Below are positions 1 to 1,197 of a stretch of 1,197 nucleotides of DNA, piece by piece. The stretch is from a phage. Location: the sequence record OR846210.1; one strand, given 5' to 3'. Within the stretch, counting starts at the first letter, position 1; the number at the start of each line of letters is the position of its first letter. The notes below the pieces were generated by a model. The model had not been told where the DNA came from. It saw nothing but the letters and a program-made list of their open reading frames with translations, and made no database searches. Both the position numbers and the translations under genes were made by a program.

Positions 1-181
1 CGATTAATCTATAATCCAGTTTTTTTCTGTTTTTTTGAACCATAGATATACATCTCATTTGCCAGACGCTACCAAAATAAAAAATTAAGACGGCGATTGT
101 TATTGGCCTGCATAAGTAATCGATATAATAAAAATTCATTACTGCGAATAATCTCATGTCGCCAGTATTTCCGTAATCCAT
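1..181 (-). CDS. speculative small hydrophobic protein, N-terminal part; frame continues beyond window start
   Basis: The minus-strand frame is stop-free from position 259 to position 2, where the window ends (86 codons), despite ~29% GC. First ATG at 181..179 gives MDYGNTGDMRLFAVMNFYYIDYLCRPITIAVLIFYFGSVWQMRCISMVQKNRKKLDYRLI..., with a transmembrane-like stretch followed by basic residues. The only Shine-Dalgarno-like element (AAGGA) is too close to the ATG (1-nt spacer). Y/F/I/N/K-rich composition is also what chance translation of AT-rich DNA gives. Confidence 0.2.
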   Translation of the reverse strand, partial: MDYGNTGDMRLFAVMNFYYIDYLCRPITIAVLIFYFGSVWQMRCISMVQKNRKKLDYRLI

Positions 182-402
182 TTCCTTTTTTAGATATGGA
201 AAATAATAAGCAATGTAAGAGTTTGATTTTTTCTTCCTCCAATGAAGAAAGCTAGATTGTTAAATAAATGTTATTATCGTGGGGGGTTCACGTATCAATT
301 GGTAAAAATACTATAAGATGGTTTTTTATAATACTTCATTTGCTATGCAAACTGAACATTTGATGCTAAAAAATAATAAAGGGTATTACTTTAATTCAAC
401 AC
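1..402. other. AT-rich (~29% GC) segment with phased A/T tracts; probable intergenic or horizontally acquired DNA
   Basis: Hand count gives 117 G+C in positions 1-400. Homopolymeric T7 runs at 20-26 and 30-36, A-rich tracts at 74-85 and 366-380, and several TATAAT-like hexamers. Composition changes abruptly at ~400-430, exactly at the 3' end of the coding block. Confidence 0.5.
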
Positions 403-423
403 CGCCGGGCTTTATACCCGGCG
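403..423 (-). terminator. candidate intrinsic terminator hairpin downstream of the 151-aa gene
   Basis: Perfect inverted repeat cgccggg (403-409) / cccggcg (417-423) with a 7-nt loop (ctttata), 7 nt beyond the TGA stop on the minus strand. The following minus-strand sequence is AU-rich (GUGUUGAAUUAAAGUAAUACCCUUUAUUAUUUUUU), but the U-run is displaced ~20 nt from the stem, so this is not a textbook terminator. Confidence 0.4.
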
Positions 424-429
424 AGAGAT

Positions 430-885
430 TCAACAATCGTATTGCCAGCTACTAACTAAGGCATAAAGGTGGCTGGGGGAGTAGCGCCAGCTATCGTTTA
501 GTCCGAGAAATTCAGCGCAAAACTCGCTGCAAAACAGTTTATCTTTGCGCTCCCGGTTATACAGCGCGATACCGAGCGCGCCCTGCCAGTCATAGCGTTT
601 GCCGTTATGTTTGCGGAAAAAGGCCTCCACTTCCGGCAACGTGGCCTTTAACGGTAGCTTATCCCACTTATCGTCCGGTAACGGTATTATCTTTCCCCGC
701 ACGCCGCGATCGCGAAACGATGCAGAGTAGCAGAGGTATTCATTACCGCCGTGCGCCACCGCCAGTTCACAGTGAGAGTAGATACCGCGCGTGACTTTGC
801 GCGTGAGCCAGTCGGCAAACCTGGCGATGCCGCGATACTCCGATCGCCCCTTATAGCAAGCGAGCCAGACGGTGGTTTGACTCAT
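430..885 (-). CDS. hypothetical Cys/His-rich protein, 151 aa; possible circularly permuted papain-fold (NlpC/P60-superfamily, YaeF/YiiX/LRAT-like) hydrolase
   Basis: Complete ORF from ATG (885..883) to TGA (432..430) with enterobacterial-type codon usage (ccg, ctg, gcg, cgc frequent). Start overlaps the upstream stop as ATGA. No N-terminal hydrophobic signal sequence; net positive charge by my count. Functional guess rests on His38 in YSHCELAVAHGG and Cys119 in FCSEFCAEF, which resemble the His-then-Cys order of permuted NlpC/P60 enzymes. This is motif recollection only. Confidence 0.75.
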   Translation of the reverse strand: MSQTTVWLACYKGRSEYRGIARFADWLTRKVTRGIYSHCELAVAHGGNEYLCYSASFRDRGVRGKIIPLPDDKWDKLPLKATLPEVEAFFRKHNGKRYDWQGALGIALYNRERKDKLFCSEFCAEFLGLNDSWRYSPSHLYALVSSWQYDC

Positions 886-1197
886 GGCTGCCAGCCTGAT
901 GAATAGTCGTAGTCGAGCACTTCCTGGATATCCCCCAGCGCTTCTACCGCCGCAATATGCCGCTGCGCGTTGGCAAACAGGCGCATATCGTGATCCATAG
1001 TGACGGTTTCAAACTGCGCGGCGATGTCGTTGGTCAGTTTAATCAAACCGTTATTTTTGGTCTGCCACATTAACCCTGCCGGAATCTGCTTTGCCTGACC
1101 CATTCTGGTGAGTGACATTTGCTGAATACGGCTGTTAGCATCGCTGTGGAAATGGTTGCCGTCGATAACGATATAATCGGTGGTAACGGTGTCGCGG
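882..1197 (-). CDS. hypothetical protein, 5'-truncated by the window edge (C-terminal ~105 codons visible); function unknown
   Basis: The track ORF 882..1118 (78 aa) starts at an ATG with no purine-rich Shine-Dalgarno in the preceding ~20 nt (minus-strand upstream reads gctaacagccgtattcagcaa). The same frame stays open to position 1196 with no stop, reading ...RDTVTTDYIVIDGNHFHSDANSRIQQ before MSLTRMGQ... Codons there are typical enterobacterial preferred codons (acc, gtt, atc, gac, ggc, aac, ttc, cac, agc, cgt, cag). The stop TGA (884..882) overlaps the next gene's ATG (885..883). Confidence 0.6.
   Translation of the reverse strand, partial: RDTVTTDYIVIDGNHFHSDANSRIQQMSLTRMGQAKQIPAGLMWQTKNNGLIKLTNDIAAQFETVTMDHDMRLFANAQRHIAAVEALGDIQEVLDYDYSSGWQP

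What the first reader, a model, noticed from the sequence alone, without database searches (positions are those of the whole stretch)
1..259. Unexpectedly long stop-free frame on the minus strand inside AT-rich DNA, encoding a hydrophobic peptide
At ~29% GC, stop codons should occur in roughly 9% of codons under a simple composition model, so 86 consecutive stop-free codons would be expected with a probability of only about 10^-3 to 10^-4 per frame (my rough estimate). The translation from ATG 181 contains a transmembrane-like stretch (PITIAVLIFYFGSVW) followed by basic residues (QKNRKK), like a small inner-membrane protein. The frame runs off the window start, so only the N-terminal part is visible if it is real. 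It could be an unannotated small membrane protein, or a pseudogene remnant or chance frame.
Basis: seen in the sequence. Interest (0 to 1): 0.5.

Follow-up and report, generated by a model that had tools for sequence, protein, structure and literature searches.

The report
Off-frame ORF in dead acetyltransferase gene
The long stop-free frame is real, but it is the shifted (+1) reading frame of the broken front end of a prophage-borne sugar acetyltransferase gene in Salmonella; it is not a conserved small membrane protein, so the finding is ordinary.

Summary
Minus-strand codons in phase with position 259 run stop-free for 86 codons, and an ATG sits at 181. The frame ends only two codons past the window start, so the ORF is 62 aa.

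The window is Salmonella enterica DNA from the cargo end of the defective prophage Def4 (STM4196-4219).

Positions 1-242 (minus) are the 5' remnant of a roughly 200-aa CysE/WcaB-like hexapeptide O-acetyltransferase, read in a different frame (TTG 242). That frame aligns with homologues from other Enterobacterales (BLASTP E=2e-30). Here it carries two TAG stops (69-71 and 9-11). A 635-bp deletion ending 46 bp left of the window has removed its catalytic domain.

- Start codon across 21 Salmonella alleles: ATG only in Kentucky-like alleles, GTG in most, GTT in two.
- Homopolymer indels break the ORF in six alleles.
- Substitutions in it are 3 synonymous to 19 non-synonymous.
- The peptide has only six near-identical Salmonella hits among 5.8 billion proteins and matches no family.
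- AGGA ends 1 nt before the ATG.

One oddity remains. The +1 frame is more open than codon permutation predicts (P about 3e-4 to 3e-3), but this is not conserved in 24 distant homologues.

Verdict: an ordinary by-product of a decaying gene.

The parts
1..259 (-). Stop-free frame of 86 codons in the window (88 in all).
   Evidence: Translation. Extension in L002 shows a TAA two codons beyond window position 1.
1..181 (-). ATG-initiated 62-aa off-frame ORF. The last two codons and the stop lie at window -7..0. It is annotated in a few S. Kentucky genomes as a hypothetical protein (CAH2864372.1).
   Evidence: The start codon is GTG or GTT in most other alleles and the frame is broken by indels in six alleles. 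AGGA ends 1 nt before the ATG. No Pfam, NCBIfam or PHROG family matches. Only six near-identical Salmonella hits exist among 5.8e9 proteins.
1..242 (-). 5' remnant of a CysE/WcaB/EpsC-like hexapeptide (LbH) O-acetyltransferase pseudogene. Codons 1-81 lie in the window and the remnant continues to codon 96 at window -46, where a 635-bp deletion junction lies. The frame is in phase with TTG 240-242.
   Evidence: The intact 201-aa ORF in S. Infantis SARB27 and in L010 is annotated as a hexapeptide transferase / serine acetyltransferase. The window translation aligns with the conserved N-terminal domain of homologues of about 190 aa, including the invariant RLA-EM motif (BLASTP 53% identity, E=2e-30 to an Obesumbacterium protein). 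The deletion was mapped. The LbH domain (residues 108-188) is entirely missing.
69..71 (-). In-frame TAG (W58*) in the acetyltransferase frame. It destroys the conserved WW of the FLFWWRLANEM motif.
   Evidence: The change is TGG to TAG and is shared only by L002, L014 and L015.
9..11 (-). Second in-frame TAG (W78*) in the acetyltransferase frame.
227..232 (-). A6 homopolymer (minus strand) at acetyltransferase codons 3-6. It is A5 in allele L017.
79..84 (-). T6 homopolymer (minus strand) with variable length among alleles (T4, T5, T6, T7).
   Evidence: P0160, 194 member sequences.
20..36 (-). A7-CAG-A7 double homopolymer (minus strand) with variable length among alleles (A5 to A8).
430..885 (-). 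Context only: intact 151-aa gene, homologue of STM4198 (phrog_1128, no Pfam family). It is the last GC-normal gene before the AT-rich cargo.
882..1197 (-). Context only: 3' part of the DUF4376 / tail-fibre-assembly-like gene (STM4199 homologue), running off the window.

Best explanation
Window 1-242 (minus strand) is the decaying 5' stump of a prophage cargo gene. The gene encodes a cytoplasmic left-handed-beta-helix (hexapeptide) O-acetyltransferase of the CysE/WcaB/EpsC type. It sits after the tail-fibre genes of the defective prophage Def4, next to a phage-type glycosyltransferase (STM4196).

In the lineage of this window, a 635-bp deletion removed codons 97-201, which is the whole catalytic domain, plus about 320 bp of downstream spacer. 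The stump then accumulated GC-to-AT substitutions, including two TGG-to-TAG nonsense changes.

It is open because, in the Salmonella version of the gene, none of the xTA/xTG codons of the N-terminal domain is followed by the base that would make an out-of-frame stop. Its ATG arose by a Kentucky-lineage G-to-A change, which is AGT to AAT in the old frame and GTG to ATG in the +1 frame. Its hydrophobic look comes from T-rich codons in AT-rich DNA. It is most likely not expressed as a functional protein.

Shown here: homology of the other frame, the deletion, the stops, non-conservation of the ORF, and its substitution pattern. Inferred: that the intact enzyme modifies a surface polysaccharide, and that the ORF is not translated.
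For: (1) Identity of the locus. The window is 100% identical to a Salmonella Kentucky-derived contig and 97.6% identical to S. Infantis SARB27. In SARB27 the homologous stretch is annotated as a hexapeptide-repeat transferase / serine acetyltransferase between STM4198 and the chromosome flank.

(2) The other frame is the real one. The 201-aa intact ORF has Hexapep and LbH Pfam hits, sub-threshold EpsC/CysE/WcaB NCBIfam hits, and phrog_2154. It has 429 homologues, and those of about 190 aa cover 92-97% of it. The window's translation in that frame aligns over residues 1-80 with invariant family residues, and the whole 96-codon remnant (continued 46 nt beyond the window start in L002) gives E=2e-30 against a 53%-identical Obesumbacterium protein.

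(3) The gene is dead here. There are two in-frame TAGs and a 635-bp deletion relative to the intact arrangement in L010, with a 2-bp microhomology junction at L002 1266/1267.

(4) Independent decay in sister lineages that share the same deletion. These carry G22*, E30*, W58* and W78*, together with -A, +T and +A homopolymer indels.

The start codon is ATG in 5 of the 20 alleles in that alignment (L013 was aligned separately), GTG in 13 and GTT in 2. The frame is broken in L014, L022 and L027 (+T), L012 and L016 (-A), and L028 (+A). The full 62-aa ATG-started ORF exists only in Kentucky-like alleles.

(6) Substitutions.

(7) The ORF stops 2 codons past the window start.

(8) No family matches the peptide, and there are only six near-identical Salmonella hits among 5.8e9 proteins.

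(9) The gene calls held for five complete or draft NCBI genomes place no gene between STM4198 and STM4196.

(10) AGGA ends 1 nt from the ATG. No promoter-like or terminator-like site lies in 1-460, and no Rfam family matches.

(11) The +1 openness is absent from 22 of 24 distant homologous genes.
Against: (a) Given the acetyltransferase's own codons, the +1 frame is more open than expected. Codon permutation gives P=6e-4 for the whole gene at 88 or more codons, 2.5e-4 for the N-terminal 96 codons, and 3e-3 for allele L030. The same null gave no P at or below 0.01 in 214 tests on 107 neighbouring ORFs. The openness is therefore an outlier, which I attribute to chance plus selection by the scan.

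(b) One distant homologue (L004) also has a 75-codon +1 run at its N-terminus (P=0.014).

(c) The ORF has been called as a hypothetical protein in some S. Kentucky genomes and appears on 45-77 contigs. This shows only that gene finders accept it.

(d) A deletion of STM4197 in S. Typhimurium was listed among 'reduced swarming only' mutants in a high-throughput screen (PMC4219756). STM4197 is probably the 96-aa chimeric ORF that shares the first 34 codons with this ORF. I did not see it discussed or complemented in the passages I read.

(e) No expression data were available for this serovar.
Confidence: 0.9

Rival explanations
1. The 62-aa ORF is a genuine, young (lineage-specific, de novo) small membrane protein of S. 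Kentucky. On this reading it arose when a G-to-A change created an ATG in the open +1 frame of the dead gene.
For: An ATG is present and the ORF is complete in Kentucky-like alleles on 45-77 contigs. The hydrophobic core is followed by basic residues, with a 19-residue Kyte-Doolittle mean of 1.57. The Kentucky-lineage changes raise hydrophobicity compared with other alleles (1.2-1.3).
Against: AGGA ends 1 nt before the ATG, and no promoter-like site lies in 1-460. The otherwise identical allele L014 is frameshifted at codon 34. All eight Kentucky-lineage changes are GC-to-AT and non-synonymous in both frames, as expected from mutation pressure in unconstrained DNA. The hydrophobic run is 15 residues and falls below the classical 1.6 threshold. 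The neighbouring STM4196-STM4197 spacer is reported as transcriptionally silent in S. Typhimurium (PMC11018118).
Confidence: 0.04
2. The +1 frame is a conserved overlapping (overprinted) gene inside the N-terminal part of the acetyltransferase gene, and the stump has kept it.
For: The +1 frame is open more than codon permutation predicts (P 3e-4 to 3e-3), on a null that behaves well on 107 other ORFs. Homologue L004 shows a 75-codon +1 run in the same place.
Against: In 22 of 24 distinct distant homologues the longest +1 run is 26-51 codons, with P between 0.06 and 0.9. In intact Salmonella alleles the changes that are synonymous in the acetyltransferase frame (R51R twice, N53N, K82K) are all non-synonymous in the +1 frame, for example V31 to D or A within the hydrophobic stretch. 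The start is GTG without a Shine-Dalgarno sequence in all intact alleles. No protein family exists for it.
Confidence: 0.02
3. The open +1 frame matters because the gene is a slippage-prone (contingency-type) locus. Indels in its A and T runs move ribosomes between the two frames, and a stop-free +1 frame lets paired indels restore the catalytic domain.
For: Tract lengths vary among 21 alleles: A5-A6, T4-T7, and A5-A8 in two runs. Database proteins P0005 and P0002 begin in the +1 frame and end in the acetyltransferase frame.
Against: The three compensated alleles were chosen through a protein search that favours long ORFs, which is an ascertainment bias. The four intact alleles found by a DNA pattern search have no indels. 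The scrambled segments include the invariant WWRLANEM motif. Runs of 6-7 bases are short for high-frequency switching (general knowledge). Some indels may be assembly errors. In this window the catalytic domain is deleted, so no switching could matter here.
Confidence: 0.04

Closest known systems
CysE/WcaB/EpsC-like hexapeptide (left-handed beta-helix) O-acetyltransferases, annotated 'serine acetyltransferase' in Salmonella (e.g. EHB39174.1, SeHA_C4533); phage family phrog_2154
   Same: The frame in phase with TTG 242 encodes the conserved N-terminal helical domain of this family. It is 53% identical to an Obesumbacterium member (E=2e-30) and has the invariant R-L-A-x-E-M residues. The intact Salmonella alleles carry the Hexapep/LbH domain.
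   Different: In this window only codons 1-81 are present (96 in the strain). There are two in-frame TAG stops and the whole LbH catalytic domain is deleted. It is a pseudogene remnant, not a member that can function. Even intact alleles score below the NCBIfam equivalog cut-offs, so the substrate is unknown.
Defective prophage Def4 of S. Typhimurium LT2 (STM4196-STM4219), a P2/Mu-like tail-gene remnant carrying gtrABC
   Same: The gene order is the same: tail fibre, DUF4376 / tail-fibre assembly, STM4198, acetyltransferase remnant, STM4196 glycosyltransferase-like gene (PMC3591323; PMC2137926).
   Different: Nothing differs in kind. The alleles differ only in the state of decay of the acetyltransferase gene.
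Spurious 'hypothetical protein' calls on off-frame ORFs inside pseudogenes
   Same: The 62-aa ORF is deposited as a hypothetical protein in a few S. Kentucky genomes (CAH2864372.1). Related 58-, 96- and 122-aa ORFs of other alleles are chimeras of the two frames and of the deletion junction.
   Different: The +1 frame is longer than codon permutation predicts.
Small inner-membrane proteins of enterobacteria (single-pass peptides of under 70 aa)
   Same: The size is similar, and there is one hydrophobic stretch followed by basic residues.
   Different: There is no conservation of start, frame or sequence. There is no Shine-Dalgarno sequence at a working distance and no family, and the hydrophobic run is marginal at 15 residues.

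Membership tests
CysE/WcaB-like hexapeptide O-acetyltransferase (for the DNA at 1-242, frame of TTG 242) | N-terminal helical domain with the conserved F-x(8)-L-x(3)-W ... R-x(9)-R ... WWRLANEM-x(3)-G pattern | tested here: met
   Alignment A2. BLASTP of the 96-codon remnant against P0010 gives 49/92 identities, E=2e-30.
CysE/WcaB-like hexapeptide O-acetyltransferase (for the DNA at 1-242, frame of TTG 242) | Left-handed beta-helix made of hexapeptide repeats (catalytic domain) | tested here: not met
   It is present at residues 108-188 of intact alleles. It is removed by the 635-bp deletion in this strain, where the remnant ends at codon 96.
CysE/WcaB-like hexapeptide O-acetyltransferase (for the DNA at 1-242, frame of TTG 242) | Uninterrupted reading frame | tested here: not met
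   TAG at window 69-71 (W58*) and at 9-11 (W78*). The feature is therefore filed as a pseudogene remnant of the family, not as a member.
   The uncharged run PITIAVLIFYFGSVW is 15 residues. The best 19-residue Kyte-Doolittle mean is 1.57 here and 1.2-1.3 in other alleles, with V31D in four alleles. No dedicated topology predictor was available.
   The sequence is 5'-CTAAAAAAGGAA-ATG, so AGGA ends 1 nt before the ATG. The start is GTG or GTT in 15 of 20 alleles.
   Frameshifts occur in L012, L016, L014, L022, L027 and L028, and a two-indel shift in L013.
   There are 3 synonymous and 19 non-synonymous substitutions in the ORF span over 20 alleles. The sample is small but shows no excess of synonymous change.
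   There is only indirect literature evidence: the STM4196-STM4197 spacer is called transcriptionally silent in S. Typhimurium (PMC11018118).
Overlapping (overprinted) gene | Alternative frame open and constrained across the host gene's homologues | tested here: not met
   The longest +1 run is 26-51 codons in 22 of 24 distinct homologues. Changes that are synonymous in the host frame are non-synonymous in the +1 frame.
Simple-sequence contingency (phase-variable) locus | Length polymorphism of a homopolymer inside the coding region | tested here: met
   Tract lengths are A5-A6, T4-T7 and A5-A8 among 21 alleles.
Simple-sequence contingency (phase-variable) locus | Reversible on/off switching within a clonal population | not testable with these tools
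   This needs deep sequencing of single-colony cultures or reporter fusions. Tracts of 6-7 bases are short for this (general knowledge).

The most novel reading that the evidence does not exclude
The unusually stop-free +1 frame of the Salmonella acetyltransferase N-terminus is not an accident. Together with four slippage-prone A/T runs, it would let the prophage gene hop between two frames, so that paired indels yield enzymes with alternative N-terminal segments (as in L017-L019). Alternatively, it could encode a young overprinted peptide that survives in the Kentucky stump.
Probability: 0.04. Interest if true: 0.45.

Novelty: not a real feature. Interest (0 to 1): 0.1.

Why it matters
It matters mainly as a caution. 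In AT-rich horizontally acquired DNA, a long stop-free frame with a hydrophobic translation can be the shifted frame of a real or formerly real gene.

The locus also illustrates step-wise decay of prophage cargo in Salmonella. One shared deletion was followed by independent nonsense mutations and homopolymer indels in different serovars. Gene finders then turn the debris into different 'hypothetical proteins' of 58, 62, 96 and 122 aa.

If the low-probability frame-hopping idea were true, it would be an unusual form of simple-sequence variation in Salmonella. Nothing here requires it.

Tried and rejected
- E. coli genomes: megablast of the window found nothing, so the window is not from E. coli.
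- Peptide families: Pfam, NCBIfam and PHROG scans of the 62-aa peptide found no family.
- RNA and signals: Rfam at a permissive threshold gave only a chance-level hit (Hrs12, 22 bits against a gathering score of 70, E=0.79, at 395-468), which I rejected. The promoter/terminator scan of 1-460 found nothing.
- Solved structures: searches for the two neighbouring proteins gave only chance hits.
- Conserved overprinted gene: I took this seriously because the codon-permutation test was significant and the null was well calibrated. I rejected it after 24 distant homologues failed to show the same openness.
- Sequencing errors: I considered that the homopolymer indels are assembly errors. This is unlikely for +T (L014, L022, L027 and a 194-member S. 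Typhimurium protein cluster) and for -A (L012 and L016 from independent assemblies, with 33 similar places). It remains possible for alleles seen only once.
Equating STM4197 with the remnant ORF is therefore an inference.

Full report
**1. The observation**

On the minus strand, the frame in phase with position 259 has no stop through 86 codons. From the ATG at 179-181 it reads MDYGNTGDMRLFAVMNFYYIDYLCRPITIAVLIFYFGSVWQMRCISMVQKNRKKLDYRLI. The other two minus frames have several stops. GC of 1-259 is 30.9%.

From base composition a stop is expected in 8.2% of codons, so 88 open codons at one fixed place have P=5e-4. That figure ignores the number of places and frames available. In 5,000 shuffles of the whole 734-nt AT-rich spacer of the strain, a run of at least 88 codons in any of six frames appears in 5% (mononucleotide) to 9% (dinucleotide) of cases. 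An ATG-ORF of at least 62 aa appears in 10-16%.

**2. Where the window comes from**

- The window has no match in E. coli.
- It is 100% identical to a contig from a Salmonella Kentucky sample (OR850896, L002; window position 1 = L002 1313).
- It is 97.6% identical to S. Infantis SARB27 (L001).
- The annotated context is the end of a defective P2/Mu-like prophage: baseplate, tail fibre, DUF4376 / tail-fibre-assembly gene, STM4198, with gtrABC further in.
- The literature calls this prophage Def4, STM4196-4219 (PMC3591323; PMC2137926).
- GC drops from 52-60% to 27-31% at about window position 400, where the phage structural genes end and the cargo begins.

**3. Extending the frame**

**4. What the DNA really is**

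In S. Infantis the same stretch belongs to an annotated hexapeptide-repeat transferase ('serine acetyltransferase'). It lies on the minus strand but in another frame. The open frame is 201 codons from a TTG equivalent to window 240-242, and the annotated start is an internal ATG equivalent to window 113.

- That protein has Hexapep and LbH Pfam domains at residues 108-188.
- It has sub-threshold NCBIfam hits to EpsC, CysE and WcaB, and it matches phrog_2154.
- It has 429 database homologues. Those of about 190 aa from Obesumbacterium, Citrobacter, Escherichia, Buttiauxella and Orbaceae cover 92-97% of it, so the N-terminal 80 residues are a genuine part of the family.
- The window translated in that frame aligns with them over residues 1-80 and keeps the invariant family residues. 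The 96-codon remnant, 81 codons of it inside the window, gives 53% identity and E=2e-30 against the Obesumbacterium protein.
- In the window this frame carries two in-frame TAGs, W58* at 69-71 and W78* at 9-11.

**5. The deletion**

The intact arrangement is seen in L010: STM4198, acetyltransferase, spacer, 242-aa STM4196. Compared with it, the window's strain lacks L010 2661-3295, which is 635 bp. The junction has 2-bp microhomology at L002 1266/1267, or window -46/-45. Only codons 1-96 of the acetyltransferase remain, and the whole catalytic beta-helix is gone.

The same junction is present in L012-L016, L022, L024, L025, L027 and L028. The deletion is therefore older than the differences among these alleles.

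**6. Relation of the two frames**

Its codon position 1 is position 2 of the old codons.

**7. Test in relatives**

I aligned 21 Salmonella alleles: 10 intact-type and 11 deletion-type. They came from NCBI genomes, Logan assemblies, IMG/VR and a metagenome.

| Start | Alleles |
|---|---|
| ATG | L002, L015, L014, L022, L027 |
| GTG | 13 alleles, including every intact-type allele |
| GTT | L012, L016 |

- A +T in the T-run (window 79-84) breaks it in L014, L022 and L027.
- A -A in the A-run (window 30-36) breaks it in L012 and L016.
- A +A breaks it in L028.
- Two opposite A-run indels shift it in L013.

L014 is otherwise identical to the window. The complete ATG-started 62-aa ORF is confined to Kentucky-like alleles.

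**8. Substitution pattern**

|---|---|---|
| Intact-type, leaving aside three columns that are alignment artefacts of L018's indels | 5 : 2 | 1 : 5 |
| Deletion-type | 4 : 12 | 2 : 14 |

- In intact alleles, the changes R51R (twice), N53N and K82K are silent in the enzyme.
- The 12 non-synonymous changes in deletion-type alleles include four independent nonsense mutations: G22*, E30*, W58* and W78*.
- Selection therefore acts on the acetyltransferase frame while the gene is whole, and on neither frame afterwards.
- All eight changes specific to the Kentucky lineage are G-to-A, G-to-T or C-to-T on the coding strand. One of them created the ATG.

**9. Other checks on the peptide**

- It matches no Pfam, NCBIfam or PHROG family.
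- It has six hits among 5.8 billion proteins, all near-identical Salmonella ORFs of 40-96 aa.
- The exact sequence exists as a 'hypothetical protein' in a few S. Kentucky genomes (CAH2864372.1), in a cluster of six.
- The gene calls held for five NCBI genomes with the deletion-type arrangement place no gene between STM4198 and STM4196.
- Upstream of the ATG the sequence is CTAAAAAAGGAA, so AGGA ends 1 nt before the start.
- No promoter-like or terminator-like site lies in 1-460, and no credible Rfam match was found.
- The hydrophobic run is 15 residues. The best 19-residue hydropathy mean is 1.57 here and 1.2-1.3 elsewhere.

**10. The one thing that is unusual**

Permuting the codons of the intact gene gives a mean longest +1 run of 34 codons. 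P=6e-4 for 88 or more codons. Within the N-terminal 96 codons P=2.5e-4 for 82 or more. For allele L030 P=3e-3. The cause is that 17 codons end in TA or TG, yet none before codon 83 is followed by the base that would complete a stop.

The null is not lax. On 107 other ORFs from the fetched loci, 214 tests gave no P at or below 0.01. So the openness is a true outlier at roughly the 1-in-1,000 level.

It is not a property of the family. In 22 of 24 distinct homologous genes (43-57% identical) the longest +1 run is 26-51 codons, with P between 0.06 and 0.9. The exceptions are L004 (75 codons, same place, P=0.014) and L103 (133 codons elsewhere in the gene, P=0.05).

A genome holds several thousand genes with two sense off-frames each, so a few such outliers per genome are expected. 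A scan that looks for long open frames will pick them up. I therefore treat it as chance plus selection by the scan, and I record it as unexplained in the strict sense.

**11. Side observation**

The 5' part of the gene holds four A/T runs (window 227-232, 79-84, 30-36, 20-26) whose lengths differ among alleles. Three intact-type alleles at another prophage site next to lysC and mor (L017, L018, L019) each carry two indels summing to a multiple of three.

This could hint at slippage-driven variation made tolerable by the open +1 frame. However, these alleles were chosen through a protein search that favours long ORFs. The scrambled parts include the invariant WWRLANEM motif. The four intact alleles found by DNA pattern search have no indels. 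I give this reading about 4%.

**12. Literature bearing on function**

- The spacer between STM4196 and STM4197 is used as a neutral insertion site in S. Typhimurium because it is 'transcriptionally silent' (PMC11018118).
- A ΔSTM4197 mutant is listed among 49 'reduced swarming only' mutants in a screen. I did not see it discussed or complemented in the passages I read (PMC4219756).
- That STM4197 is the remnant ORF is my inference from gene order. The record's note is cut off.

**13. Verdict**

The stop-free frame exists, but it is the +1 frame of a truncated, twice-stopped acetyltransferase pseudogene at the cargo end of prophage Def4. It ends just outside the window. It is not conserved in start, frame or sequence, and it has no translation signals or relatives. 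It is not a real gene with about 0.9 confidence. Interest is low.

Noticed in passing
window 20-36, 79-84, 227-232 (minus strand A7-CAG-A7, T6, A6); loci L012-L014, L016-L019, L022, L027, L028: Homopolymer lengths in the 5' part of the acetyltransferase gene differ among Salmonella alleles (A5-A6, T4-T7, A5-A8). Three otherwise intact alleles (L017-L019) carry paired indels that sum to a multiple of three and keep one long ORF. This could be slippage-driven variation or an ascertainment effect.
   Followed up: partly
window 1-259 minus strand; L010 2372-2660: The +1 frame of the Salmonella acetyltransferase N-terminus is far more open than codon permutation predicts (P 3e-4 to 3e-3). The null gave no P at or below 0.01 in 214 tests on other ORFs. 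One distant homologue (L004, Escherichia sp.) has a 75-codon +1 run in the same place, and 22 others do not.
   Followed up: yes
window 1-242: All eight substitutions specific to the Kentucky-type allele are G-to-A, G-to-T or C-to-T on the coding strand, and all are non-synonymous in both frames. Divergence from S. Infantis is about 5% in 1-259 against about 1.5% in the rest of the window (my estimate from the alignment and the 97.6% overall identity). This is consistent with AT-biased mutation in unconstrained DNA.
   Followed up: partly
L002 279-1007 (minus), about 300 bp left of the window start: The neighbouring 242-aa gene (STM4196, Q8ZKK9) has no Pfam or NCBIfam family but matches phrog_1962 'glycosyltransferase' (E=7e-100) and contains a DID motif. 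With the acetyltransferase and gtrABC, the prophage seems to carry several surface-sugar-modifying cargo genes.
   Followed up: partly
window 430-885 (minus): The 151-aa STM4198 homologue is intact and very widespread in Salmonella (listed in 14,933 blocks of the collection's index). It has no Pfam, NCBIfam or solved-structure relative. It matches phrog_1128, whose label 'enoyl-CoA hydratase/carnithine racemase-like' covers only part of a 381-position profile. Its function is unknown.
   Followed up: partly
window 403-423: A GC-rich inverted repeat (CGCCGGG, 7-nt loop, CCCGGCG) lies 7 nt downstream of the STM4198 stop on the minus strand. It has no T-run, so the terminator scan did not report it. 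It sits exactly at the GC-content step between the phage genes and the AT-rich cargo.
   Followed up: no
L001 7428-7489 and L002 152-213: S. Infantis SARB27 lacks the STM4196 gene altogether. Its homology to the Kentucky-type contig resumes only at a 62-bp stretch left of the cargo. The cargo end of Def4 therefore exists in at least three deletion states: acetyltransferase plus STM4196, acetyltransferase only, and stump plus STM4196.
   Followed up: partly
window 240-242 and upstream (minus strand): Even intact Salmonella alleles lack an ATG at the family's usual start (homologues begin MKIKLL; Salmonella has TTG-GAG-GAA-GAA-AAA-ATC-AAA). Gene finders therefore start at an internal ATG (158 aa), which drops 43 conserved residues. 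The true start codon of the intact gene is unclear.
   Followed up: no
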